Numbered from the stretch's first letter, positions 915 through 18,628 are shown. The stretch is 64,000 nucleotides of DNA from Cyanobacteria bacterium P01_F01_bin.150 (GCA_039189765.1 JBCCYL010000023.1:1-64000); one strand, 5' to 3'. Program-made: numbers and translations. Notes: generated by a model not told the origin, from the letters alone.

Positions 915-2030
915 CTAACCAAAGCCATCAGAAAAGAGAATCAGGCTATCATCACTGTCGTGCCAATATGCATCATCACCGCTTGTGGCCGTATTGGCTA
1001 ATCGGACTCGACCAATGCCTTGACTAATCACCTGCAAAATCCGTTTAGGCCCAAATGCCGCCAGGGCCAGAATATTGCCAGCCATAAGCCATTGATGTTC
1101 ATCTTGGGAAAGATGGCTCAGAATCTCGTCTGGTAGCTGTCTTGCCTGTTGCTTAGCGGCATCGGATGCAATCACAAAGGGATTTTTAAGCATTACGGCA
1201 TGGCGCGGTAGCAGACCCAAATCATAAATATTGATGCTGGTGTCGGGGAACCACTGGGACTGTCGCAGCATTGTAGGCACCCGCAGGCCGCTGGGAGAGG
1301 CATCATGAAGGGCATAGACGCTGAGATTAGGATTGCGCTTTAGCATGGTCATCACCGTGTCAAAAATTTCAGCAGGATAGCCATTGATGCTAACAACTAC
1401 ACAGTTGTGCTCAAAATGAAGATTGTTGGCAATAAGCATCTGGGCAATATCATCATGTTCACACACCACTACTCGGTCAAAACTGTAGTCGCTCACCTGG
1501 GGACTAATCGCCACCTGATTGACTTGCTGACGCACGGGCGCAAGCTGTCGTTGCGTGTCCCCTTTGGCACGTTGCCACTGTTGATGCCAGTCATTGAAAG
1601 TCGCCCAATTAACGGGGAATGTTTTAGGTTGCTTAAGGAGTTGTTTACGCTTTTGTCGTTTGTCCCATAACGCCAACACAATACTTATTGCGATCAGCAC
1701 CATGCCCCAACCAATTGCCGCATTGAGAAGCATAATGCCGCCAATAACTGTCCCCACAAAAGCCAGGGTGGTAAGGGGGCCAGACTGCTGAATAATCTTA
1801 CGCTCCAGACGACGATTTATAAGATAGTAGAGCTGGGCCTCCGTAAAAAACAGCGTGTCGTTAGCGGATACGTCCTCAATCAGCTGGGCAAAGAATATAT
1901 CGGTAAACTTGAACGGAGCCTTCATGGCCGTAGGTTCAAAGGCAAAGAGTTGCCGACAGTTTTTACAGCGTCCACGGTTCGCTTCACGATCTTTTAGGTT
2001 ATTGTCAACGCGACAGTTACTGCATTTCAT
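915..2030 (-). CDS. Hypothetical protein: N-terminal CxxC..CxxC zinc finger, TM hairpin, C-terminal Toprim-like domain
   Basis: MKCSNC...RCKNC; hydrophobic segment near aa 85-122; VVVCE and YALHDAS motifs. Confidence 0.7.
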   Translation of the reverse strand: MKCSNCRVDNNLKDREANRGRCKNCRQLFAFEPTAMKAPFKFTDIFFAQLIEDVSANDTLFFTEAQLYYLINRRLERKIIQQSGPLTTLAFVGTVIGGIMLLNAAIGWGMVLIAISIVLALWDKRQKRKQLLKQPKTFPVNWATFNDWHQQWQRAKGDTQRQLAPVRQQVNQVAISPQVSDYSFDRVVVCEHDDIAQMLIANNLHFEHNCVVVSINGYPAEIFDTVMTMLKRNPNLSVYALHDASPSGLRVPTMLRQSQWFPDTSINIYDLGLLPRHAVMLKNPFVIASDAAKQQARQLPDEILSHLSQDEHQWLMAGNILALAAFGPKRILQVISQGIGRVRLANTATSGDDAYWHDSDDSLILFSDGFG

Positions 2031-2073
2031 AGAAGATTTCTAGTGATCTTTGAATGGGCTGATATGGAATACG

Positions 2074-3483
2074 CTAAAAAACTTGTTGTGCGAGCAATAC
2101 AGAATAGTCTTCCCGCTGTCGAATCAGACGATGAGTGTTGGTGTCTACATTGGTTTCTACGTTGGCTTCTAGCAAGACTTCCGCAGGGCGGGGGCGGTGT
2201 AAGAAGTGGGACGACATGGCGTACCCATAGGCTCCTACATCGAGAACCGCCAGATGGTCGCCGGGCTTAAGGGCGGGTAGCTGACAATTCCGTCCCAGAT
2301 AGTCGCGGGAGTAGGTGGTGTTGCCACAGACATCGCTGGGAAATAGCTCTTCATCATCGTTTGCCCATGTTGTGATGGTGCGGTAGCCGCCGTGAACGGC
2401 TGGAACAGAGAGATTCGCCACGGTGGTGTCTACACCGATAATTTGGCGATCGCCCTGCCATTTAACAGACACCACCTCCGTCAACAACGTCGCACAACCC
2501 GCGATCGCCGCCCGCCCCGGTTCGATAATTAGCTGAATGGGGCGATTGCGCTGTTTTTGACTTAATTGATTGACGATGGGCTGATTGACCTCAAGCTGGC
2601 TGATCTGCTGGGTAATAGCCTCACCAAAGGTTGGCCAGTCAAAGGCGACCCCACCGGGACGATAGCCATAGCCAAATCCACCGCCAAAGTCAAGATATTG
2701 CCAGTCCGGAAGCTGCTGCGCCGCCGCCAGCACGGGGGCCATTGCTTGGGTAAATGATCGGGTCGCGTTGGTACCTGTTCCTCGATAAAAATGCAGCCCG
2801 CTGATCGTTAGTCCAGCAGACTGGGCAATGGACTGGGCCGTATCAAAGTCCTCTGGTCTAACCCCAATTCGACTACCGCCAGTTACTTCTGGTAGGTTTA
2901 GTCGTAGTCCCAATTTTAGTGTGGTCTCTGTGGTCTCAGATTGCTGATGATTTTGTGGCTGATTTTGAGAATGATTTTGAGAATGATTTTGGTAATGCTC
3001 CCGACATTGATAGAGTGCCGCTAGCTGTTGCACCTGCTGTACGCTGTCTAAATTAAAAGTGCGAACGCCCCAATCCAGAGCCTGCTTCATATCCGGAATG
3101 GAAAGATTGCTGCCGCTGTAAATAATTTTTTGAGGTGAAAAGCCTGCCTGTAGCCCCAGATAGATATCCCCCGGTGTATTGGCATGAAGGCCCCATCCAG
3201 CCGCACAAATTTGCTGGAGTAACGCCACATTGCCATTGGTCACCGCAGCAAAATGAAAGGTCGTCGATGGATAGGGCACCGATTGCTCAATATGGCGGAG
3301 GGTCTTATGTAGATGCGATGCCTGATACACATACAGCGGTGAACCATAGGTTTGCAACAGCTCGTTTACTAAAGGCCGGGGCAATGGCGGTGGCGAGAGC
3401 AGTGGCGATGGCTGTGACGATGGTGATGGCGGTGATGATGACGAAGACGATAACGATGGCAAATTTGACAGCAGATTAGTCAT
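2074..3483 (-). CDS. Diaminopimelate decarboxylase (LysA/Orn-DAP-Arg decarboxylase fold type III)-like protein, catalytically atypical
   Basis: YGSPLYVY, DFGGGFG, IIEPGR, GAYGYAMSS..RPRP motifs present; PLP Lys position is Val. Confidence 0.8.
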   Translation of the reverse strand: MTNLLSNLPSLSSSSSSPPSPSSQPSPLLSPPPLPRPLVNELLQTYGSPLYVYQASHLHKTLRHIEQSVPYPSTTFHFAAVTNGNVALLQQICAAGWGLHANTPGDIYLGLQAGFSPQKIIYSGSNLSIPDMKQALDWGVRTFNLDSVQQVQQLAALYQCREHYQNHSQNHSQNQPQNHQQSETTETTLKLGLRLNLPEVTGGSRIGVRPEDFDTAQSIAQSAGLTISGLHFYRGTGTNATRSFTQAMAPVLAAAQQLPDWQYLDFGGGFGYGYRPGGVAFDWPTFGEAITQQISQLEVNQPIVNQLSQKQRNRPIQLIIEPGRAAIAGCATLLTEVVSVKWQGDRQIIGVDTTVANLSVPAVHGGYRTITTWANDDEELFPSDVCGNTTYSRDYLGRNCQLPALKPGDHLAVLDVGAYGYAMSSHFLHRPRPAEVLLEANVETNVDTNTHRLIRQREDYSVLLAQQVF

Positions 3484-5674
3484 TGTCAGAGTGCCTCCTG
3501 AGGGTTTTCCAAAACCATTGGGGTATCCAAAAGGGATGGTCGAAGGAATATCTTGGGGTGGATTCTCCCAATACGTGCTGTCGCCACTGCTGCCACATTA
3601 CTAGAAGCCATAGGATTTCACCAATCCGCCGCCCGCGAATACTGCCCAACTGGCCTGACACAAGTTGTTCGGGAAATTGAGACTGCCAAATCTCATCTTC
3701 TCGCAAGCGACTAGGGTTAAGCCAACGGCCCAAGTCAGACCATAACTGATTAAAGCACCACAAGGTTAAGGGGACTCCCATCCCCCGCTTTTCTCTCCAG
3801 ACAATATCCTCCGGCAGCCACTGAGCAACTGCCTGCTTCAAAATATATTTCTCACAGGTGCCCCGCAGATAAAGCTGTTCCGATAGGCTAAAAGTCCACT
3901 GGGTCAGCTCTGGGTCACAAAAGGGCGATCGCACCCGTAACCCATGGGCAAAGGCCAATTGAGTCGCCCGAGGCTGAATATTTTGGGCCCCCTTTAGCAA
4001 CAGCGTAGCTCGACGCAGCCGATGCAGCAGCGGCTCCTGATTCGGTCTATCATCCGATTCGCCATCTGATTTATCGCGTCGTTCGTCACTTTGACCCAGG
4101 CTAGAGTATAGCCACTGGAGCGGGTCAATTTGGGCGATCGCACCTTTCACCTCAGCCGTAAACGCCTGAGACTCATAGCCATGGAGACGATGAAACGTTT
4201 TAAGATATTGTTGGGCAAAGGTTTCCGAGGCAGTGGCAGACACCAGGTTATAAAGTCCCGCCGCTATCAGGGGTTTATTGGTCCATCCGGCAAAAAGCTG
4301 GTCGCCATTTTCCCCATTAAAGACCACCGATACGTCCTTTGCTGCCGCCTGGTTAAGCAAAAATAACGGCACGGTGACGCTGTCGCCAAAGGGCATATCC
4401 AGGGCTTGAGCAGTAGCGGCGATCGCCCTCCGCACCTCTTTTGGCCCGACCTTAATTGCCACCAGCGGAATATCTAAATACTCAGCCACCCGCTGCGCAT
4501 AGGGCAGCTCTGAGGTTTTATCGTCCTCGAAATCTAAACTATAGGCCCGTACCGATACCCCAGCCTGCACCAGCAGTGCAGCCACCACTGACGAATCTAA
4601 CCCACCGGAGAGAAATACCCCCACGGGTTCGGATGGAAGCAATTCTAGCTGGCGCAACACCGCTTGTTTAAGCAGGGTTTGTAACTGTTGAACTGCGATC
4701 TCCTCATCGTCGATCTGATGGTTGGGGACATGCCACTGATTCGGCTGTTGCGTTTCGGTTATTAACGTACCGTCTTGTTGCCAGCGATGCTGCTGTCGGA
4801 CGCCTGCTGGAACGGACTGAATGCCTTGAATCGGAGTTAGGGGTGTGGGCACATAGGAAAAACAAGCGTAACCATAGAGGGCCGCTGGGTCGATTTTACG
4901 CTGACCCAGCAGCCCTGATCGCGGCCCAGATTGCCGACATGAGCGGCTATCGGATAGGTGCGATCGCTCTTCCAATCCATCTTCTAATGTATCCTTTAAT
5001 CTGCCCCCTGATCTTGCCTTTAATTTAGCTTCTAATTTGATCTCTAAAAGAGGCAGCAGATACTGAAGCTGCGATGCAAACCATAGAATTGTCCCCTGCT
5101 GCATCCAGTAAAGCGACATCCGGCCAAAGATACTGCGTTCCCAAACCAAGCTGTTATCAGCCCCGAGTCCAATCCAAAGATCTGGAGAATGGTCTAGGCC
5201 AGATGCGGAGAGTTGGGCAATAACCTGTTTGACGCGGTGGTCTTTGGGATTGTCCAGTGGAGCGTTTGTTGCAGGGTTGATCGCCCAGAAGGGCGATCGC
5301 TGAACGTCCATGTTAGATGATGACGTTGGTTTATGGAGTTTTGCGACTGCCCAGAAGGGCGATCGCTCAGAATTGCCATAGGCCACAGCATCTTGCGCTT
5401 CTTGAATAATAGGAGACTCAGATCCGTAAGAACTATTGGGAGATTGACAGATTTTTGCGGTTAGCCCGCGCAGCTTTTCGAGAGATTGCTGGTGCAAGCG
5501 TTGGTTAAGTTGGGTATCCGATGAGTTGCCCCAGTAGCCAACGATGCCCCATGGTTTATCGGGTTGAGGAGTTCCTGAGATATTCAGTTTGTTCGAAAAT
5601 TCACGAGATAGGTTCACGCAGCTTCCTGCCCTTGTTTCAACTCTTGATAGCCCCCCTAGCCCTCGATAGACCAC
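3476..5674 (-). CDS. Asparagine synthetase B-like (adenine nucleotide alpha-hydrolase) protein; true start uncertain (GTG at 5617 plausible)
   Basis: LSGGLDSS PP-loop, NGENGDQLFAG, RSPFCD, EKYILK, REKRGMGVP; stop overlaps next gene start. Confidence 0.85.
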   Translation of the reverse strand: MVYRGLGGLSRVETRAGSCVNLSREFSNKLNISGTPQPDKPWGIVGYWGNSSDTQLNQRLHQQSLEKLRGLTAKICQSPNSSYGSESPIIQEAQDAVAYGNSERSPFWAVAKLHKPTSSSNMDVQRSPFWAINPATNAPLDNPKDHRVKQVIAQLSASGLDHSPDLWIGLGADNSLVWERSIFGRMSLYWMQQGTILWFASQLQYLLPLLEIKLEAKLKARSGGRLKDTLEDGLEERSHLSDSRSCRQSGPRSGLLGQRKIDPAALYGYACFSYVPTPLTPIQGIQSVPAGVRQQHRWQQDGTLITETQQPNQWHVPNHQIDDEEIAVQQLQTLLKQAVLRQLELLPSEPVGVFLSGGLDSSVVAALLVQAGVSVRAYSLDFEDDKTSELPYAQRVAEYLDIPLVAIKVGPKEVRRAIAATAQALDMPFGDSVTVPLFLLNQAAAKDVSVVFNGENGDQLFAGWTNKPLIAAGLYNLVSATASETFAQQYLKTFHRLHGYESQAFTAEVKGAIAQIDPLQWLYSSLGQSDERRDKSDGESDDRPNQEPLLHRLRRATLLLKGAQNIQPRATQLAFAHGLRVRSPFCDPELTQWTFSLSEQLYLRGTCEKYILKQAVAQWLPEDIVWREKRGMGVPLTLWCFNQLWSDLGRWLNPSRLREDEIWQSQFPEQLVSGQLGSIRGRRIGEILWLLVMWQQWRQHVLGESTPRYSFDHPFWIPQWFWKTLRRHSDND

Positions 5675-5802: not shown

Positions 5803-6423
5803 CTAGTCTACCTGAAAGGTATGGCTATCTAAGACGCGATCGCCCAATTTCATCGTCACGGTCCACATACCCGGTTCCGCCGTCGCATTAATCTGATATT
5901 TACAGCGGGTTTGCCAAACGGGGGTAGTGACAAGATTGGTTTGATAACTATTTTGGTGAAGAATCTGGCCGCTGGGACTGGCCCAGTCACAGGTTAACGG
6001 CAGCCGTCTGCCAACGGGAGCATCAGTTAAAGAAACTTGATAAAACACTTCGGCATTGTCTTGACGATTGACCGCTGTAACGGGGTTGCCATCTCGTCCC
6101 ACGGTGACCTGCTCCGCTACCGTGTCCACCCGATTGAGTGCCTGCTGTCGCTGTTGATGTATAAAGAATAGCCCCGTTAATCCTAATGCGGCTGCGGCGA
6201 TGACCCCGATGATAATTTGTTTTCTCTGGCGAGTCTGGGCCGCCAGGGCGTCCTGTCGCTGCAGTTGGACAATGGCATCATCCAATAACTCAGACGACAG
6301 TCCCAAGTCCACCAGAATCTCCTGCACCTGCTGCCGCGACAGCTCGGATTCAGCTGAACGGGACATCCGCTCAACTTCTGCCACTACTCGAATCAGGTCT
6401 CTATCCGTTAGTCGATCAGTCAT
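5803..6423 (-). CDS. DUF3859-like membrane-anchored protein
   Basis: N-terminal helical region, single TM (IIIGVIAAAALGLTGLFFI), C-terminal beta domain with CDW.SPSG...PGMW.V. Confidence 0.65.
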   Translation of the reverse strand: MTDRLTDRDLIRVVAEVERMSRSAESELSRQQVQEILVDLGLSSELLDDAIVQLQRQDALAAQTRQRKQIIIGVIAAAALGLTGLFFIHQQRQQALNRVDTVAEQVTVGRDGNPVTAVNRQDNAEVFYQVSLTDAPVGRRLPLTCDWASPSGQILHQNSYQTNLVTTPVWQTRCKYQINATAEPGMWTVTMKLGDRVLDSHTFQVD

Positions 6424-6525
6424 GGGATTTTTTTACTGAAAAGGCCATACAATATCTGAATTAGATAGGCAAATACGCTTATTTTTTTAAGATTTACTCG
6501 CGATAGCGTAACCCATCATACCTCT

Positions 6526-6801
6526 ATGGCCAGTTCAGCCTCCTCTGATAACCCAACAAGAGCGCGATCCGTTTCTTCCATTGAACGCCTCAAGCTGATT
6601 CAGACGCTAAACAAGCTGCCAGAAGGTCAGTTTGAAGAACTGCTGGTGGCGCTAAATCCTCCTGGAGGTATTGTGCCAAAAACATCGGCTGCGCAGGGCA
6701 ACCGAACATCGGCGCTGTTGCAGTGGGTGGAAAGTCCAGCGGGTAGGGGCTTAGCCGAGCTACAGGAACTTCTAAGTCTGTTATTAAATGACCCTCACTA
6801 G
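6526..6801 (+). CDS. Small helical effector-associated-domain (EAD/death-fold-like) protein; possibly N-terminal part of a frameshift fusion with the next ORF
   Basis: RLKLIQTLNKLPEGQFEELLVALNPP..IVP..SAAQGNR..ALLQWVESPAGRGL resembles cyanobacterial N-terminal adaptor domains of NTPase conflict proteins. Confidence 0.65.
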   Translation: MASSASSDNPTRARSVSSIERLKLIQTLNKLPEGQFEELLVALNPPGGIVPKTSAAQGNRTSALLQWVESPAGRGLAELQELLSLLLNDPH

Positions 6802-6838
6802 CCCCTTCGTTATCCTCCGGCACTGAGACGGAGGGGCT
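6790..6838 (+). promoter_or_regulatory. Candidate -1 frameshift cassette: GAC CCT CAC TAG plus 11-bp stem-loop (6800-6810/6828-6838)
   Basis: AGCCCCTTCGT pairs with ACGGAGGGGCT (one G-U); the -1 frame opens at 6792 and runs into NB-ARC. Confidence 0.55.
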
Positions 6839-9257
6839 GTTTAATGTGCCCGATCGCAATCCCTTCTTTACGGCTGGAGCAGCGGTTGGTGGCGATCGCC
6901 CAACACGGGAAGACATTCTGACCCTTATGCAGGAAGTATTGCAGCACCAGCGACCAGTAGCGTTAAGTGGATTGGGGGGCATTGGCAAAAGTCAGCTTGC
7001 GGCTGAATATGCCCATCGCCATCGTCAGACGTATAAAACGGTGGTGTGGCTGCGGGAGGAAACCTCAGAAGAGCTATTTGCCAACGTAGCTGTGGTGGCC
7101 CAGGATTTAGGGTTGCCCCTACGGCAAAATGCGGACCAAACGTTGGTGGTCCAAGCCCTTAAAAACTGGCTCAAAGATCGCGATGAATGGCTACTTATTT
7201 TAGATAATGCCGATTCTTTAGATTTGGTAAAAGATTGGCTCAAGCTAAAGGAGGCTGGGCATATTGTTTTGGCCACCCGAGCGGCAGTCACGGAACCTCT
7301 GGCAAAGAAAATTGACGTGGAGACATTTGCGCCCGATGAAGGCTGCTTATTTCTATTGCGACGGGCAGGGATACTGGACAAAGCGGACGACTTGGCCCAA
7401 GCATCAGCGGCGGATCAGGATCTTGCCGTTACCCTAAATCAGTTGATGGATAGCTTACCCTTGGCCCTAGACCAGGCTGGGGCATTTATCTTGGAAACAC
7501 CATCTAGTCTCGAAGAATATTTGGCGCTCTATCAGGCTGCGGCACCTCAGTTATTGGAACAAGAGAGTCAAAACAGTCCCGACCATCCGTCAGCCACCGT
7601 TACCTTTTCCCTGGCGTTTGAACAAGTAGCAAGTCAAAACCCAGCGGCGGCAGATTTGCTAACCCTTTGTGCCTTCCTTGCCCCCGATGCGATTCCAGAG
7701 GAGCTTTTTACCGCAGGGGCGGACTATTTAGGAGAAGAATTAAGAGCTGCAATAACTGATCCTATAAAAAGACTACAACTTCTGCGAGACGTGGGACGAT
7801 TCTCGCTGCTAAGCCGCAATCCCAAAGCCCAAACCCTGGATATGCATCGGGTAGTGCAAGCGGTCTTACAATCTCGATTGAGTCCAGAACAGCAGCGGCA
7901 ATGGCGGGATCGAGCAATCTATACAGTTAATGCAGCGCTGCCAGATAGAGGTATTGAATATGCTGACTGGGTAATTTTTGAGCGCGTGCTACCCCATGCC
8001 CAAACGGTTATTGAGGAGATAGATGGGGATAGCTGTGAGTGTAAGGTCTCTGCCCATCTACTAAATCAAACCGCCGAATATCTTTGGGCACGGGGACAGT
8101 ATGGAACGGCGGAACCGTTATTTCAAGATGCTTTAACTATTCGCCAACGGATCTTGGATGACGAGCATCCAGATATTGCAGAAAGCCTAAATAATCTTGC
8201 TAAAGTTTATCGTTCCCAGGGCCGCTACAGCGATGCAGAACCACTCTACTGTGAGGCTTTAGCGATGAGGAAGCGCCTGTTTGGGGAGGAGCACCCTGAT
8301 GTGGCTCAGAGTCTAAATAACTTGGCTGAACTTTATCGTTCTCAGGGGCAACCTAGCAACGCAAGACCACTCTACCACGAGGCCCTGGAGATGAGAAAAC
8401 GCCTGTTTGGGGAAGAGCACCCTGATGTGGCTCAGAGTCTAAATAACCTGGCTGTATTCTACTACTGTCAGGGCAACTACAACGATGCGGAACCGCTCTA
8501 TCGCGAGGCGCTAAAGATGAGTAAACGGCTATTGGGTGATGAGCATCCCGATGTGGCGACGAGTCTGAATAACTTAGCTGGACTCTACGACGCTCAAGGC
8601 CGCTACAGCGAAGCAGAACCGCTCTACCGTGAGGCTTTGAAGATGAGGCAGAAACTGTTGGGTAAAGAGCATCCCAATGTAGCGACGAGTCTAAATAACT
8701 TGGCATTACTCTACAAGGCCCAAGGATATTATAGAGATGCAGAACCACTCTATCGAGAGGCCCTGGAGATGAGTAAGCGACTATTGGGTGATGAGCATCC
8801 TGATGTTGCAACGAGTCTGAATAATCTGGCATTTCTCTATGCCTCTCAAGATCGCTACAGCGAAGCAGAGCCACTCTACCGCGAGGCGTTGGAGTTGAGT
8901 AAGCGGTTGTTGGGTGATGAGCATCCCAATATTGCAACGAGTCTGAATAACCTGGCATTGCTCTACAATTCCCAAGGTCGCTACAGCGACGCGGAACCAC
9001 TTTTCCTTGATGCTTTGGAGATGAGCAAGCGGCTGTTGGGCGATGAACATCCCAATGTGGCGACGAGTTTATTTAATTTGGGGGCATTACGCTATCAACA
9101 AGGGCAGTACATAGCTGCCCAAACACTTCTTTTGCAAGCGCAACCGATCTATCTCACTGTTCTCGGTCCAGACCACCCCAGCACTCAAAATCTTCAGGGT
9201 TGGATTGATGACGTTCAAGCTGCCCTTGAAGAATCTGGCCATGATGGGGAGGCTTGA
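6792..9257 (+). CDS. NB-ARC (STAND) NTPase with C-terminal 42-aa TPR array (NLR-like); frame open from 6792, first start codon GTG at 6846
   Basis: LFNVPDRNPFFT, GLGGIGKS Walker A, LLILDNAD Walker B, LPLALDQAG, MHRVVQ; about 9 HPDVAxSLNNLA repeats. Confidence 0.9.
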   Translation, partial: PSLAPSLSSGTETEGLFNVPDRNPFFTAGAAVGGDRPTREDILTLMQEVLQHQRPVALSGLGGIGKSQLAAEYAHRHRQTYKTVVWLREETSEELFANVAVVAQDLGLPLRQNADQTLVVQALKNWLKDRDEWLLILDNADSLDLVKDWLKLKEAGHIVLATRAAVTEPLAKKIDVETFAPDEGCLFLLRRAGILDKADDLAQASAADQDLAVTLNQLMDSLPLALDQAGAFILETPSSLEEYLALYQAAAPQLLEQESQNSPDHPSATVTFSLAFEQVASQNPAAADLLTLCAFLAPDAIPEELFTAGADYLGEELRAAITDPIKRLQLLRDVGRFSLLSRNPKAQTLDMHRVVQAVLQSRLSPEQQRQWRDRAIYTVNAALPDRGIEYADWVIFERVLPHAQTVIEEIDGDSCECKVSAHLLNQTAEYLWARGQYGTAEPLFQDALTIRQRILDDEHPDIAESLNNLAKVYRSQGRYSDAEPLYCEALAMRKRLFGEEHPDVAQSLNNLAELYRSQGQPSNARPLYHEALEMRKRLFGEEHPDVAQSLNNLAVFYYCQGNYNDAEPLYREALKMSKRLLGDEHPDVATSLNNLAGLYDAQGRYSEAEPLYREALKMRQKLLGKEHPNVATSLNNLALLYKAQGYYRDAEPLYREALEMSKRLLGDEHPDVATSLNNLAFLYASQDRYSEAEPLYREALELSKRLLGDEHPNIATSLNNLALLYNSQGRYSDAEPLFLDALEMSKRLLGDEHPNVATSLFNLGALRYQQGQYIAAQTLLLQAQPIYLTVLGPDHPSTQNLQGWIDDVQAALEESGHDGEA
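8060..9190 (+). repeat. 126-bp intragenic tandem repeats encoding TPR units
   Basis: GAGCA(T/C)CC.(G/A)AT(G/A)T.GC...GAGTCT.AATAA recurs every 126 bp. Confidence 0.9.
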
Positions 9258-9277
9258 AGAGTGAGGGATCAGCTCCC

Positions 9278-9438
9278 GGTGCCCAGACTCCGGCTTGGAA
9301 CAAGGTATTTTAGATTTTGGATTTTGGATTTCCTTGGTGCCCAGACTCCGGCTGGGTGCCCTCTCAGGAGACTCTGGCTCCGCTGCCCTGTCTGAGCCAG
9401 AGTCTCAGATGGGCATTCCCAGCGGGACACTGGGAACC
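9278..9438. repeat. Palindromic intergenic repeat (CCCAGACTCCGGCTGGG...GAGCCAGAGTCTC...TTCCCAG..CTGGGAAC) with embedded ATTTT(A/G)G heptamers at 9307-9330
   Basis: Duplicated GGTGCCCAGACTCCGGCT; related copy at 59273-59379 shares GAGCCAGAGTCTC. Confidence 0.7.
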
Positions 9439-9596
9439 ATGAAACTCACCCCATCTTGTAATAAATTTCATCCTGTCTTTAACGACTCGATCAGATGCAC
9501 ATCCAGTTGGCGTTCAATCGAGATGTAAAAAGAAACTACAGGTTCAAACTAAAATTTTATCGGCACAAATTAAAGCCCATCCAACCTTGAACAATC

Positions 9597-10061
9597 ATGT
9601 TCAGAACTATCCTAAAAATTGCATTATTGGCGCAGGCATTCTTTTGCACTGGTCCTGCCGCTTTAATCCTTGCTCTTGGATCAATGTTTGCCATTAGTGT
9701 GGGCATTGCAGTGCCGGCTCTTTATCTCTTCTCCTTCCTGACTGGGCAACCCTTAGCAGAAGACTTGTTAGCCCAACACGGCATGATGATAGGAAAGATT
9801 TTTCTACCCTGGAGCTTCGGAGTTTTGGCAATTGGCAACGTTTGGTACCTCTTGTTACTTACGTTGATGGGCAAAAAGCTGATCTACACAACATTCTTTA
9901 TCATCAGCATTATTGGCGGCACTGCAACCGCCCTTATTTTTTGTATTCCCCCGACAAATATAACGTTCAACAGCATGTTGCTTGCTGGGTTTCCCTTACT
10001 GTTTGGATATCAACTATTGTTTATGCAACATAGAGGATGGTACAGATACTTTGCAGATTAG
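9597..10061 (+). CDS. Hypothetical integral membrane protein
   Basis: 154 aa, about 4 hydrophobic segments, ATG start. Confidence 0.65.
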   Translation: MFRTILKIALLAQAFFCTGPAALILALGSMFAISVGIAVPALYLFSFLTGQPLAEDLLAQHGMMIGKIFLPWSFGVLAIGNVWYLLLLTLMGKKLIYTTFFIISIIGGTATALIFCIPPTNITFNSMLLAGFPLLFGYQLLFMQHRGWYRYFAD

Positions 10062-10162
10062 GTCCCAGTATGACCTGATCAAAGGTTATAGCCCACCAGC
10101 CCATGATCTGACGGGTCAAACCATACCCAATTGCCTCCAGTACTTAACCATCACGTTTAGCG

Positions 10163-10244
10163 GCTTGTACTTTAAGGCGGTGTTGTGGGGCGCTCCGCGC
10201 TCCACAACACCATTAAATTCTTCCCGGCTTAAGTTATAAGCCCG
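10163..10244 (-). repeat. ~80-bp structured dispersed repeat, subfamily B
   Basis: Reverse complement GGGCTTATAACTTAAGCCGGGAAGAATTTAAT-hairpin-CCGCCTTAAAGTACAAGCC; close relative at 23070-23151. Confidence 0.7.
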
Positions 10245-10436
10245 TTTAGCAAAGCCGTCTCTGGCATTCGTAATTGGCTATATGGCCCTTATTTTGAACT
10301 GAACTAAACCCAAAGGAAGGTTAAGGGCACTCCATGAACCGTTTACAATAATGCTTATGCACAGTGCAAACATTAACCGTACTGTGCCACAGATAAGACA
10401 AGCATGACGTTAGACGGATGTAGGGAGTGGTAAATC

Positions 10437-11666
10437 ATGGTTGAAAAAATGCAGTGGACCAATGCCCTTTCCACCCGTCCATCGTTAGAAGCCGCCATCC
10501 AAGAAGTGGTGACCCAAGTTCAACAGACGATTTCAGGCACGTTGGATGTGGGCATTGTGTTTATCGCATCGGCCTTTGAGAGCGAATATGCTCGCCTTAT
10601 GCCCCTGCTCCAAGAAAAGCTATCCATTCCAGTGCTGATTGGCTGTAGTGGCGGCGGGATTGTCGGTATGACTGAAAATGGTGCAAAAGAAATTGAAGCC
10701 AACGTTGCCATCAGCCTCAGTGTCGGACAATTACCCGGAGTATCCGTAACGCCGTTTTTAATGCGTCCCGATGAACTCCCTGACTTGGATGGTCCCCCTC
10801 AGCAATGGGTGGATTTAGTAGGTGTCGCCCCAGAAAAGCAGCCTGACTTTATTGTGTTGGCAGACCCAATGGCCGGAGGTCTTAATGACTTTTTACAAGG
10901 CATGGATTTTGCATACCCAAGTGCGGCAAAAGTAGGAGGCTTAGCCAGTGCAGGCTCCATGTCGGCTCGAACCTGCGTCTTTTACCAGGACGACGTTTAT
11001 TTTGGTGATATTGTCGGCATTGCCTTGAGCGGCAATATTAAGCTTGATGCAATCGTTGCCCAAGGGTGTCGGCCAATTGGCCCGGTGTACCGAGTCACGG
11101 AAGGAGAGCGCAATATCATTCTGGAACTTCAAGAAGTAGACAGCGATGAGAACAGCCACCCTCCCCTAAAAATATTGCAGGAGATGCTGGAAACTCTTAG
11201 TGAGGCAGATCGTGAAAAAATCCAAAACTCCTTATTTGTGGGCATTGCTCAAAATGAATTTAAAGCAACCCTTGAACCCGGTGACTTTCTGATTCGACAG
11301 CCCATGGGAATTGACCCACGGGTGGGGGCTTTGGCCATTGGCGATCGCGTTCGTCCAGGACAGCGGATTCAATTTCATCTTAGAGATGCACAAACATCAG
11401 CGGACGATTTGGATATTCTGCTAAAACGCTATGGCCTAGAGCAATCTAGCCAGCCCTCTGCTCCCTTAGGTGCATTGATGTTTGCCTGCTTGGGACGGGG
11501 CAAGTCTTTGTATAACAAAGCAGACTTTGATTCAAGCCTGTTTACTCAAACCATATCAAATGTGCCGATTAGCGGCTTTTTCTGCAACGGTGAAATCGGC
11601 CCCGTTAGCGGCACATCGTTTATCCACGGCTTTACCTCTGTTTTTGGCATCCTAAGGCAGCCCTAA
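10437..11666 (+). CDS. FIST N/C domain signal transduction protein
   Basis: LIGCSGGG, VAQGCRPIG, FACLGRG, GFFCNGEIGP motifs. Confidence 0.9.
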   Translation: MVEKMQWTNALSTRPSLEAAIQEVVTQVQQTISGTLDVGIVFIASAFESEYARLMPLLQEKLSIPVLIGCSGGGIVGMTENGAKEIEANVAISLSVGQLPGVSVTPFLMRPDELPDLDGPPQQWVDLVGVAPEKQPDFIVLADPMAGGLNDFLQGMDFAYPSAAKVGGLASAGSMSARTCVFYQDDVYFGDIVGIALSGNIKLDAIVAQGCRPIGPVYRVTEGERNIILELQEVDSDENSHPPLKILQEMLETLSEADREKIQNSLFVGIAQNEFKATLEPGDFLIRQPMGIDPRVGALAIGDRVRPGQRIQFHLRDAQTSADDLDILLKRYGLEQSSQPSAPLGALMFACLGRGKSLYNKADFDSSLFTQTISNVPISGFFCNGEIGPVSGTSFIHGFTSVFGILRQP

Positions 11667-17710: not shown

Positions 17711-18628
17711 CTAAGCTGCCACCGAATTCGGCACCGAATCCAGCAGCTCCTGTACCAAGGTTTTGGCTCGATGACCGCTACTGGGAATTAGGCGGTGGGC
17801 TAGAACTGCAATCGCCAATTCCTTTACATCGTCCGGGATCACAAAATCTCGCCCTTTCAAAAAAGCTAGAGCTTGGCTGGTCCGATGAAGTGCCACAGTG
17901 CCCCTGGGACTGACTCCCAATCGAATATCGTTATGATCACGGGTCGCTCGGACCAAGGCTAAAATATAGCGCTGAACATTATCCTTAACTCTGACCTGGG
18001 CACAGGCATCCCGTAATTGTTTCACCTCTGCTAGCGAGATACATGGCTCAATCTTTTGGGACGCTTTGCCATCCTGCAACCGCTGTAGCATCTGTAATTC
18101 TTCTGATTCCGACGGATAGCCCAAACTCAACGAGAGGCTAAAACGATCCATTTGGGCCTCAGGCAGAGGAAACGTCCCTTGATACTCCACTGGGTTCTGG
18201 GTGGCAATGACAAAAAACGGTTCAGGCACAGAGCGAGACACGCCATCCGTTGTCACCTGGTGTTCTTCCATCACCTCTAGCAATGCAGACTGGGTACGAG
18301 GAGTCGCTCGGTTAATCTCATCCGTGAGCAATATGTTTCCAAAGACTGGTCCCTGTAAAAACTCAAACTCTCCGGTCTGCGGATTCCAAATATTAGTTCC
18401 AGTAACATCAGTCGGTAACAGGTCTGGAGTACACTGCACTCGCTTAAAAGAACCATCAATTGAGCGAGCTAAAGACTTAGCCAGCAGGGTTTTGCCCACA
18501 CCAGGTACATCTTCTAACAAAACATGACCGCCAGAAAAAAGTGCGGTTAAAACAAGCTGAATCTCTTGCTCTTTACCAACAATGGCACGACCTAAATTGC
18601 TGATTAAGCGTTCAATACTCTCTCTCAT
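17711..18628 (-). CDS. moxR: MoxR family AAA+ ATPase
   Basis: LEDVPGVGKT, QCTPDLLPTD, DEINRATPRTQSALLE, ATQNP, PLPEAQMDRF. Confidence 0.92.
   Translation of the reverse strand: MRESIERLISNLGRAIVGKEQEIQLVLTALFSGGHVLLEDVPGVGKTLLAKSLARSIDGSFKRVQCTPDLLPTDVTGTNIWNPQTGEFEFLQGPVFGNILLTDEINRATPRTQSALLEVMEEHQVTTDGVSRSVPEPFFVIATQNPVEYQGTFPLPEAQMDRFSLSLSLGYPSESEELQMLQRLQDGKASQKIEPCISLAEVKQLRDACAQVRVKDNVQRYILALVRATRDHNDIRLGVSPRGTVALHRTSQALAFLKGRDFVIPDDVKELAIAVLAHRLIPSSGHRAKTLVQELLDSVPNSVAA

What the first reader, a model, noticed from the sequence alone, without database searches (positions are those of the whole stretch)
6526..9257. Candidate programmed -1 frameshift fusing an EAD-like adaptor to an NLR-like NB-ARC/TPR protein
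Seen: ORF1 ends AAT GAC CCT CAC TAG (6787-6801). The -1 frame has TGA at 6789-6791 and opens at 6792 (CCC TCA CTA GCC...), reading PSLAPSLSSGTETEG-LFNVPDRNPFFT into NB-ARC, so any shift must fall in a 9-nt window where a Pro tRNA could move from CCU to CCC. Four nt after the CCU codon an 11-bp stem begins (6800-6810 with 6828-6838), where a -1 frameshift stimulator would sit. The first in-frame start (GTG 6846) falls inside the 'LFNVPxRNPFFT' pre-NB-ARC motif. Known: STAND/NLR-like conflict proteins in multicellular bacteria often carry N-terminal EAD/death-like adaptors. Inference: one locus makes both a free adaptor and a lower-abundance adaptor-NLR fusion, so recoding sets the stoichiometry of an immune-like signalling system. 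The site is not a canonical X XXY YYZ heptamer. Alternative: the stem hides a GGAGGGG SD (6830-6836) for GTG 6846 that terminating ribosomes unmask (translational coupling).
Basis: partly seen in the sequence, partly recalled or inferred. Interest (0 to 1): 0.85.

Follow-up and report, generated by a model that had tools for sequence, protein, structure and literature searches.

The report
Split adaptor–NLR-like gene in a cyanobacterium
A bacterial immune-receptor-like gene that is one piece in its closest relatives is here cut into a small free adaptor and a large ATPase/TPR protein by a one-base frame change next to a strong RNA hairpin; inherited gene splitting explains it better than programmed frameshifting.

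Summary
ORF1 (6526-6801, 91 aa) stops at TAG 6799-6801. The -1 frame is closed by TGA 6789-6791 and open from 6792, its first start is GTG 6846, and it runs to 9257 as an NB-ARC/TPR protein. A strong hairpin (6799-6839) has the stop codon in its base.

New evidence: 7 of the 8 best relatives of ORF2 are in-frame fusions that carry the ORF1 domain at their N-terminus. The window is therefore a split of a formerly single gene, cut exactly at the domain/linker boundary. Two other proteins (82% and 60% identical to ORF1) end at the same residue (…GDPR-stop). This argues for an inherited split and against an assembly error.

Programmed -1 frameshifting is weakly supported. No X XXY YYZ site exists, and only a P-site tRNA-Pro slip (C CCU) is possible. 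The 18-codon extension is neither longer nor more linker-like than chance allows. I could not reach the DNA of the relatives.

Best reading (0.5): two separate proteins, a solo EAD7-like adaptor and an NLR-like protein started weakly at GTG 6846. Rivals: decaying gene (0.25), recoding (0.1), assembly error (0.07).

The parts
6526..6801 (+). ORF1, 91 aa, free EAD-type adaptor; stop TAG 6799-6801
   Evidence: No Pfam or NCBIfam hit. Family of 779 representative proteins at E<=1e-3.
6577..6789 (+). Four-helix adaptor domain (residues 18-88 of ORF1)
   Evidence: AlphaFold2 with a 141-row alignment: mean pLDDT 87.6, helices 18-30, 33-43, 57-69 and 76-88. The block of residues 81-90 averages pLDDT 89, and the last residue scores 49. 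Nearest Atlas clusters carry EAD7.
6789..6801 (+). Frame-change window. TGA 6789-6791 closes the -1 frame. CCT (Pro) at 6793-6795 is the last codon collinear with fused relatives and the only codon whose tRNA could re-pair in -1 (CCC 6792-6794). TAG is at 6799-6801.
   Evidence: Slip logic is read from the sequence.
6792..6845 (+). 18 open codons of the ORF2 frame upstream of its first start (PSLAPSLSSGTETEGLFN); remnant of the ancestral linker
   Evidence: Not significantly linker-like. Being open is not unusual.
6799..6839 (+). Stem-loop, 12+3 pairs, with the stop codon in its base and the SD in its 3' arm
   Evidence: Not terminator-like. No Rfam family.
6814..6834 (+). Alternative inner hairpin: CCUCC 6814-6818 pairs with GGAGG 6830-6834
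   Evidence: fold of 6812-6860.
6830..6836 (+). GGAGGGG, Shine-Dalgarno-like, 9 nt before GTG 6846 and 7 nt before ATG 6844
6844..6921 (+). Competing ATG in the ORF1 frame, overlapping GTG 6846 (AATGTG); 25-codon ORF
6846..9257 (+). ORF2, 803 aa from GTG: NB-ARC + DUF7779 + TPR array (NLR-like STAND NTPase)
6873..6905 (+). 33-nt, 11-codon insertion (AGAAVGGDRPT) that splits the pre-P-loop F.GR motif; contains GCGATCGC at 6892-6899
6948..7577 (+). NB-ARC match (residues 53-262 of the 6792 translation); Walker A GLGGIGKS
8013..9188 (+). TPR_12/TPR_10 array

Best explanation
This is a split version of an adaptor-NB-ARC-TPR (bacterial NLR-like) gene. Relative to its in-frame relatives the reading frame drops by one base immediately after the Pro codon CCT 6793-6795. 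That codon sits at the boundary between the four-helix adaptor domain and the flexible linker.

The upstream part terminates two codons later and yields a 91-aa solo adaptor of the EAD type, nearest EAD7. The downstream part remains an intact 803-codon NB-ARC/TPR gene.

The split is most likely inherited rather than recent, and the two parts are most likely made as separate proteins. ORF2 would be started inefficiently at GTG 6846. Its SD (6830-6836) is sequestered in the hairpin whose base is ORF1's stop codon, so passage or termination of ORF1 ribosomes is the likely route by which ribosomes reach the start.

Shown: the anatomy, the ancestry from a fused gene, the recurrence of the same end in two other proteins, and the strength of the hairpin. 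Inferred: separate translation, coupling, and the role of the solo adaptor in homotypic docking or competition with effectors that carry the same domain.
For: 1. Ancestral fusion. Of the 8 best non-self hits to ORF2's first 300 residues, 7 (P0007, P0009-P0014; 54-57% identity, 518-805 aa) start with a domain 54-57% identical to ORF1. They run in frame through a 15-aa linker into LFLAPRRNPFFTGRE and the P-loop. The window is collinear with them...LLNDP | SLAPSLSSGTETEG-LFNVPDRNPFFT.

2. The cut is at the domain edge. The fold ends at residue 88, and fused relatives have G-E-P where ORF1 has N-D-P.

3. The end is shared. P0003 (80 aa, 82% identical) and P0171 (109 aa, 60% identical) end ...TGDPR-stop at the same aligned residue as ...LNDPH-stop. 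The three group together (SH-aLRT 89, quick tree of 163 rows).

4. An 803-codon frame without a stop, with Walker A and the NB-ARC, DUF7779 and TPR matches intact, is what selection on ORF2 predicts if the split is old.

5. Solo and domain-terminal forms are natural in this family. In 14 of 163 family proteins the domain is the C-terminal end of a longer protein, and 4 are solo. A finished plasmid of Gloeothece verrucosa PCC 7822 has an annotated 87-aa solo gene, WP_013335084.1.

6. An SD-like GGAGGGG lies 9 nt before GTG 6846. The hairpin lies exactly between stop and start, which is where stable hairpins between genes are usual.
Against: - I could not see the DNA of P0003 or P0171. It is therefore unproven that an NB-ARC ORF follows them in the -1 frame.
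- Initiation at GTG 6846 looks poor. The SD is paired in the main stem and can re-pair with CCUCC 6814-6818 once the 5' arm is opened. ATG 6844, a stronger start codon (recalled), overlaps in the other frame.
- A start at GTG removes the conserved aromatic residue two positions before [VI]P. Natural short N-termini in this family keep it, for example MWNIPF... and MVWNIPY....
- ORF2 carries a unique 11-aa insertion in a motif ([FY].G[RH]) present in 110 of 110 relatives examined. This hints at relaxed constraint.
- No second copy of the adaptor domain exists in the 64-kb window, so no partner is in view.
Confidence: 0.5

Rival explanations
1. Programmed -1 ribosomal frameshifting. A fraction of ribosomes decoding CCU 6793-6795 slip to CCC 6792-6794, stimulated by the hairpin. 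The locus then yields both the free adaptor and a full-length adaptor-NLR in a fixed ratio.
For: - The frames, the 9-nt window and the lack of a start in the extension are as described.
- The hairpin is in the top 0.26% of the window.
- The same end (DP[HR]-stop) occurs in three proteins down to 60% identity.
- H versus R at the last residue could be a single A/G change that is silent in the -1 frame (UCA/UCG Ser). This is an inference from the amino acids only.
- Independent initiation of ORF2 looks handicapped.
- The product would restore the architecture of the closest relatives.
Against: - There is no X XXY YYZ heptamer. The A-site tRNA-His cannot re-pair on UCA, so only a single-tRNA slip is possible, and CAC is not a stop or a known slow codon (canonical rules recalled).
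- The stem starts 3-4 nt after CCU, closer than the usual 5-9 nt spacer (recalled).
- The extension is no more linker-like than 185 of 1000 shuffles, and the 0 frame scores the same.
- Its openness has P = 0.41.
- G-[ED]-P is conserved in fused relatives too, so the 'DP' is a domain feature and not a slip-site signature.
- There is no Rfam match.
- The base rate is low: 146 recoding clusters among 19,430 clusters of frame transitions (abstract of PMC3711429).
Confidence: 0.1
2. Gene decay. A frameshift mutation inactivated the receptor. ORF1 survives, as a useful solo adaptor or by chance, while ORF2 is no longer made and is on its way to being lost.
For: - A one-base change next to a short C run is the commonest kind of lesion.
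- There is a second unique lesion: an 11-aa insertion in a motif kept in 110 of 110 relatives.
- The start context for ORF2 is poor.
- Pseudogene clusters are 4010 of 19,430 frame-transition clusters (abstract).
- No partner effector lies in the window.
Against: - ORF2 is stop-free over 803 codons with all its domains scoring normally; NCBIfam FxSxx_TPR gives 466.7 bits against a cut-off of 300.
- If the split predates the divergence from P0003 and P0171, an unselected ORF of this length should have collected many stops (inference).
Confidence: 0.25
3. Assembly or sequencing error. The true gene is in frame and one base is missing at 6792-6795.
For: All the closest full-length relatives are in frame. 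The change is a single base next to a run of C.
Against: Two other, clearly different sequences (82% and 60% identity) stop at the same residue. The run is only 3-4 bases long.
Confidence: 0.07

Closest known systems
EAD-coupled STAND/AP-ATPase conflict systems of multicellular bacteria (Kaur, Burroughs, Iyer, Aravind; eLife 2020 PMC7159879 and eLife 2021 PMC8195603; passages read)
   Same: - A small non-enzymatic helical domain sits at the N-terminus of a core NTPase.
- The same domain is fused to TIR, CHAT, trypsin-like and FGE-sulfatase (FGS) domains elsewhere.
- It is also fused to TRADD-like_N/pentapeptide proteins.
- It can occur in tandem, with 5 and 7 copies in P0126 and P0127.
   Different: - Here the adaptor is detached from the NTPase by a frame change.
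- No Pfam EAD model matches the domain: 0 hits for ORF1, and 0 of 20 family members match EAD7 at E<=1.
- No second copy lies in the window.
In-frame homologs P0007, P0009-P0014 (named by their sources as tetratricopeptide repeat proteins of Nodosilinea, Tildeniella and Leptolyngbya)
   Same: They have the same domain order and are 54-57% identical to both halves. The linker is 15 aa against 17 aa in the window.
   Different: They form one continuous ORF and have an intact F.GR motif. The window has the frame change, the hairpin and an 11-aa insertion.
Cellular -1 programmed frameshifts such as dnaX and copA (dnaX: abstract of PMC3711429; copA: passage of PMC5009743)
   Same: They yield two products with a common N-terminus from 0/-1 overlapping frames. 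A downstream structure acts as stimulator (recalled).
   Different: Those use canonical slippery heptamers (recalled), and none is present here. In copA the frameshift makes the short product, whereas here it would make the long one.
Solo genes of the same domain, e.g. WP_013335084.1 on plasmid Cy782202 of Gloeothece verrucosa PCC 7822
   Same: It is an 87-aa protein consisting of the domain alone, annotated in a finished genome.
   Different: It is followed by a non-coding stretch and a gene on the opposite strand, not by an NB-ARC ORF. Its C-terminal tail is different.
CARD-only and pyrin-only decoy proteins of mammalian inflammasomes (recalled, not from a call)
   Same: A free copy of the adaptor domain of an NLR pathway could compete for homotypic contacts.
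   Different: This is an analogy only. The PDB fold search gave no significant match, although PYD, DD and CARD chains head the list at TM 0.35-0.49.

Membership tests
Programmed -1 ribosomal frameshift site | Upstream ORF overlapped by a -1 ORF that has no start of its own near the overlap | tested here: met
   The first ATG, GTG or TTG lies 18 codons inside the open frame.
Programmed -1 ribosomal frameshift site | Slippery heptamer X XXY YYZ allowing both tRNAs to re-pair (rule recalled) | tested here: not met
   Only GAC CCU CAC UAG is available. CCU to CCC is possible, CAC to UCA is not.
Programmed -1 ribosomal frameshift site | Stable structure about 5-9 nt downstream of the slip site (rule recalled) | tested here: inconclusive
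   The hairpin is strong but starts 3-4 nt after CCU and 0-1 nt after CAC.
Programmed -1 ribosomal frameshift site | Slip site, frame arrangement and structure conserved in relatives | tested here: inconclusive
   The protein end is conserved in 3 sequences.
Programmed -1 ribosomal frameshift site | Trans-frame protein actually made | not testable with these tools
   Needs a reporter assay, mass spectrometry or ribosome profiling.
Effector-associated domain (EAD) as defined by Kaur et al. 2020 | Small, non-enzymatic, mostly alpha-helical domain | tested here: met
   Four helices over residues 18-88, pLDDT 87.6.
Effector-associated domain (EAD) as defined by Kaur et al. 2020 | Terminal position on a core component and, in other proteins, on effector or signalling domains | tested here: met
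   21 of 163 family proteins have it N-terminal to a P-loop. Architectures seen: TIR-, CHAT- and trypsin-[domain] and [domain]-FGE-sulfatase. Census: Pentapeptide 27, TRADD-like_N 19, TIR_2 16, NACHT 8, NB-ARC 7 of 141.
Effector-associated domain (EAD) as defined by Kaur et al. 2020 | [quoted passage not shown] | tested here: inconclusive
   There is one copy only in the 64-kb window, and the rest of the genome was not available. The Gloeothece plasmid locus has two copies 300 bp apart.
Pfam EAD7 (PF19960) | Match to the Pfam model | tested here: not met
   ORF1 and P0003 have no family at E<=10. 0 of 20 family members match at E<=1. The only lead is the Atlas: the nearest cluster scores 0.94 with EAD7 on 25% of its members, and structural TM is 0.62-0.69 to EAD7-bearing clusters.
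Pfam EAD1 (PF19955) | Profile similarity to EAD1 domains of paralogous NB-ARC-TPR proteins | tested here: not met
   hhalign of A2 against A4 gave probability 0.5%. Both alignments are shallow, so this is a weak negative.
Death-fold superfamily | Structural match to DD, CARD, PYD or DED | tested here: inconclusive
   0 PDB matches at E<=0.001. PYD, DD and CARD chains dominate the top ranks, but at TM 0.35-0.49 and E>1. The model has four helices, not six.
NB-ARC/AP-ATPase STAND NTPase with TPR sensor (NCBIfam FxSxx_TPR NF040586) | NB-ARC and TPR profile matches above curated cut-offs, and Walker A | tested here: met
   NB-ARC 36.6 bits (cut-off 23.5), TPR_12 437 bits, NF040586 466.7 bits (cut-off 300). 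Walker A is GLGGIGKS.
NB-ARC/AP-ATPase STAND NTPase with TPR sensor (NCBIfam FxSxx_TPR NF040586) | Contiguous pre-P-loop motif [FY].G[RH] | tested here: not met
   It is present in 110 of 110 relatives examined; of 119 hits, 7 were dropped for no Walker A match by my pattern and 2 for too little upstream sequence. The window has FFT-AGAAVGGDRPT-RE.
Translationally coupled gene pair | SD and start of the downstream gene close to the upstream stop, with the SD masked by a structure that upstream ribosomes open | tested here: inconclusive
   The SD is 9 nt before GTG, the stop is 44 nt before GTG, and the stop lies in the stem base. An alternative stem can re-mask the SD, and ATG 6844 competes.

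The most novel reading that the evidence does not exclude
The split is a conserved recoding device. A non-canonical single-tRNA -1 slip (tRNA-Pro, C CCU) in front of a stop-embedded hairpin lets one locus make an abundant free adaptor, acting as a decoy or buffer like CARD-only proteins. It also makes a rare full-length adaptor-NLR, setting the stoichiometry of a bacterial NLR-like pathway. The evidence does not exclude this: the same DPx-stop end persists down to 60% identity, ORF2 is intact, and its own start site is handicapped.
Probability: 0.1. Interest if true: 0.85.

Novelty: new member of a known kind. Interest (0 to 1): 0.35.

Why it matters
As it stands, this is one more NLR-like STAND gene of a cyanobacterium, in a split state. 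Such genes turn over fast and broken copies are expected.

Three things lift it slightly above routine. The cut falls exactly at the adaptor/linker boundary. The same end recurs in two diverged relatives. A strong hairpin holds both the stop codon and the next gene's ribosome-binding site.

If the solo adaptor is functional, it would be a natural test of the 'EAD principle', in which homotypic adaptors recruit effectors, and a possible bacterial counterpart of adaptor-only decoys. If recoding were shown, it would to my knowledge be the first programmed frameshift in a bacterial NLR-like gene. My two literature searches turned up none; none of the 10 papers listed out of 905 held the phrase 'programmed ribosomal frameshifting'.

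Tried and rejected
- **DNA of the two proteins that share the stop (P0003, P0171).** Not obtainable. Conservation of the slip site, the -1 frame and the hairpin therefore stayed unchecked.
- **Linker-homology test.** The -1 extension scored against a profile of 9 fused linkers gave 0.4 bits, 185 of 1000 shuffles did as well, and the 0 frame gave the same score. It carries no signal.
- **Terminator reading of the hairpin.** The consensus scan did not list it.
- **Known RNA family.** None at E<=1 in 6400-7000.
- **EAD1 relationship.** hhalign gave no match.
- **Death-fold membership.** The PDB Foldseek search found nothing significant.
- **Self-association of ORF1.** Complex prediction with 2 copies of residues 14-91 returned 'no answer' (score 0.00). 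This is no evidence either way.
- **Ribosome hopping from CAC 6796 to CAC 6821.** The next codon would be TGA (read), so I rejected it.
- **Transcriptional slippage.** There is no long homopolymer at the site, so I rejected it.
- **Plasmid collection search with ORF1.** It gave only 2 distant hits, useful solely for the solo-gene example.
- **Careful tree search.** It did not finish, so the quick tree is what I cite.
- **A literature search with a term starting with '-'.** It was a syntax error and I did not repeat it.
Full report
**1. Observation**

ORF1 runs 6526-6801 (91 aa) and ends AAT GAC CCT CAC TAG. The -1 frame has TGA at 6789-6791 and is open from 6792. It reads PSLAPSLSSGTETEGLFNVPDRNPFFT... 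and continues without a stop to 9257. The first ATG, GTG or TTG in that frame is GTG 6846, giving 803 aa.

RNAfold pairs 6799-6810 with 6828-6839: 12 contiguous pairs, two of them G-U, plus three inner pairs, at -20.6 kcal/mol. The UAG stop is the base of the stem and GGAGGGG (6830-6836) lies in the 3' arm. In a 76-nt context the energy is -22.9 kcal/mol, z = -2.07, and 2 of 200 shuffles fold as well. Only 0.26% of 21,319 45-nt windows of the + strand are as stable, in 17 regions in 64 kb. The hairpin is therefore a real feature and its position next to the stop is unlikely to be chance.

The open 18-codon extension is a different matter. At this window's stop-triplet frequency it has P = 0.41.

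**2. What the two ORFs are**

ORF2 matches NB-ARC (36.6 bits, cut-off 23.5), DUF7779 and a long TPR_12/TPR_10 array. It also matches NCBIfam FxSxx_TPR (466.7 bits, cut-off 300). It is an NLR-like STAND NTPase.

ORF1 matches nothing in Pfam or NCBIfam, even at E<=10. A profile of it nevertheless finds 779 representative proteins at E<=1e-3. With a 141-row alignment AlphaFold2 gives a confident four-helix domain over residues 18-88 (mean pLDDT 87.6), and confidence drops at the very C-terminal end.

The domain occurs in these architectures:
- TIR-[domain]-EAD9.
- CHAT-[domain]-EAD9.
- Trypsin-[domain].
- [domain]-FGE-sulfatase.

A Pfam census covered P0001 plus 140 of the 150 listed hits. Seven long proteins were left out for the size limit, and P0003, P0004 and P0097 were also not included. 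It gives Pentapeptide 27, TRADD-like_N 19, TIR_2 16, EAD1 8, NACHT 8, NB-ARC 7 and EAD9 7.

This is the architectural signature by which Kaur et al. define effector-associated domains (passages of PMC7159879 and PMC8195603). The ESM Atlas places ORF1 nearest to clusters in which a minority of members carry EAD7: score 0.94 with EAD7 on 25% of members, and structural TM of 0.62-0.69. Pfam's EAD7 model matches 0 of 20 family members tested, and hhalign against EAD1 domains is negative. A PDB fold search has no significant hit, though PYD, DD and CARD chains head the list at TM 0.35-0.49. I therefore call it an EAD-type adaptor, nearest EAD7, and not a demonstrated member of any Pfam EAD or of the death fold.

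**3. The two ORFs were one gene**

I searched with the first 300 residues of the 6792 translation. Of the 8 best non-self hits, 7 (P0007, P0009-P0014; 54-57% identity, 518-805 aa) begin with a domain 54-57% identical to ORF1. They continue in frame through a 15-residue linker into LFLAPRRNPFFTGRE and the P-loop.

The window is collinear with them. ORF1's ...LLSLLLNDP aligns with ...LLSLLLGEP. The -1 frame's SLAPSLSSGTETEG-LFNVPDRNPFFT aligns with NPAAINTANANP-LFLAPRRNPFFT. The frame change therefore sits directly after the Pro codon CCT 6793-6795, at the domain/linker boundary. It is equivalent to the loss of one base.

**4. Is the split old?**

P0003 is 80 aa, 82% identical, and not flagged partial by its source. 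P0171 is 109 aa and 60% identical. Both end ...TGDPR-stop at the residue aligned with ORF1's ...NDPH-stop. The three group together in a quick maximum-likelihood tree of 163 rows by 75 columns (SH-aLRT 89; the careful search did not finish).

This makes an assembly error unlikely and suggests one inherited event. If so, the intact 803-codon ORF2 argues that it is still under selection; that step is an inference.

Two cautions apply. G-[ED]-P is also conserved in the fused proteins, so 'DP' marks the end of the domain rather than a slip site.

Solo or domain-terminal forms are otherwise common. In 14 of 163 family proteins the domain is the C-terminal end of a longer protein, and 4 of 163 are solo. 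P0255 (92 aa) stops inside a linker that continues in frame in its relative P0097. A finished Gloeothece plasmid has an annotated 87-aa solo gene next to a 180-aa paralog.

**5. How ORF2 could be expressed**

(a) Own or coupled initiation at GTG 6846. The SD-like GGAGGGG is 9 nt upstream, but it is paired in the main stem. When the 5' arm is removed, as under a ribosome terminating at UAG, GGAGG re-pairs with CCUCC 6814-6818. ATG 6844 overlaps GTG 6846 in the ORF1 frame and opens a 25-codon ORF. Initiation is thus possible but looks deliberately or accidentally weak.

Three of the 119 listed relatives (P0038, P0045, P0058) are also predicted to begin at the [VI]P of the motif. This shows that gene callers fall on this codon; it does not show that it is used.

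(b) A -1 frameshift. Only tRNA-Pro on CCU can re-pair, on CCC. The following tRNA-His cannot. The site is not X XXY YYZ, is not next to the stop, and the stem begins 3-4 nt after CCU (sequence; rules recalled). The extension scores no better against a profile of fused linkers than 185 of 1000 shuffles. The base rate of recoding among conserved frame transitions is under 1% (146 of 19,430 clusters; abstract of PMC3711429).

Points in its favour are the hairpin, the shared stop, the poor alternative start, and the retained F-N before V-P.

**6. A second lesion**

[FY].G[RH] precedes the P-loop in 110 of 110 relatives examined. Of the 119 hits, I dropped 7 for lacking a Walker A match to my pattern and 2 for too little upstream sequence. 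The window has FFT-AGAAVGGDRPT-RE, a clean 33-nt insertion (6873-6905) that carries a GCGATCGC palindrome. This keeps the frame but hints at relaxed constraint, and it is the main support for the decay rival.

**7. Verdict**

Programmed frameshifting is possible but not favoured.

My ranking of explanations:

| Explanation | Confidence |
|---|---|
| Inherited split expressed as two proteins, ORF2 started weakly or by coupling at GTG 6846 | 0.5 |
| Decaying gene | 0.25 |
| Conserved -1 recoding | 0.1 |
| Assembly error | 0.07 |

The decisive data are the DNA around the stops of P0003 and P0171, read support at 6792-6795, and a reporter or proteomic test.

**8. Context**

The neighbours are ordinary chromosomal genes: asparagine synthase-like, PLP decarboxylase, FIST, pentapeptide, ExoD and SRAP. 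No effector with the same adaptor lies within the 64 kb. GCGATCGC occurs 60 times against 0.63 expected, a cyanobacterial signature (label recalled). This agrees with the cyanobacterial titles of 7 of the 8 loci found.

Noticed in passing
window 6873-6905: An 11-codon in-frame insertion (AGAAVGGDRPT) splits the pre-P-loop F.GR motif, which 110 of 110 relatives keep. It contains GCGATCGC flanked by TTGG...CCAA, so it looks like a small palindromic insert.
   Followed up: partly
window 1-64000; 6900-11340: GCGATCGC occurs 60 times against 0.63 expected. ORF2 holds only one copy, inside the insertion, and none lies between 6900 and 11340, a gap about four times the mean spacing. This may reflect the repeat-rich TPR region or a different history of this gene.
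   Followed up: no
window 6844-6921: ATG 6844 in the ORF1 frame overlaps GTG 6846 (AATGTG) and opens a 25-codon ORF (MCPIAIPSLRLEQRLVAIAQHGKTF). It would compete with the ORF2 start for the same SD.
   Followed up: partly
proteins P0255 and P0097: P0255 (92 aa) ends ...FTPDPPQAG-stop inside a linker that continues in frame (...FTPDPPQPIRPL...FTGRE, P-loop) in its relative P0097. This may be a second, independent truncation of the same adaptor-NB-ARC architecture at another linker position, or a fragment.
   Followed up: no
L009 5965-7063 (Gloeothece verrucosa PCC 7822 plasmid Cy782202): Two convergent genes 300 bp apart both carry the domain: an 87-aa solo and a 180-aa protein whose tail has no Pfam match. 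They sit among IS transposases, with an FGE-family gene 1.7 kb away.
   Followed up: partly
L003 and L004 (contig JBCCNE010000001.1, 15492-27746 and 52025-64279 reversed): The same 610-aa CHAT-[domain]-EAD9 protein is encoded twice in inverted orientation on one 79.8-kb contig. This is either a large inverted duplication or an assembly palindrome.
   Followed up: no
proteins P0126 and P0127: Proteins with 5 and 7 tandem copies of the adaptor domain. Such arrays could act as multivalent hubs.
   Followed up: no
window 17711-18628 (- strand): A MoxR-type AAA_3 ATPase with a weak bpMoxR match. MoxR-vWA pairs are cores of the EAD-using ternary systems described by Kaur et al. I did not check for a vWA partner next to it.
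   Followed up: no
window 915-5674 (- strand): A run of three genes in the same direction: a protein with a Toprim-domain match, a PLP-dependent Orn/DAP/Arg decarboxylase-like protein and a 732-aa asparagine-synthase-like protein. The last two overlap by 8 nt. This may be a small biosynthetic operon.
   Followed up: no
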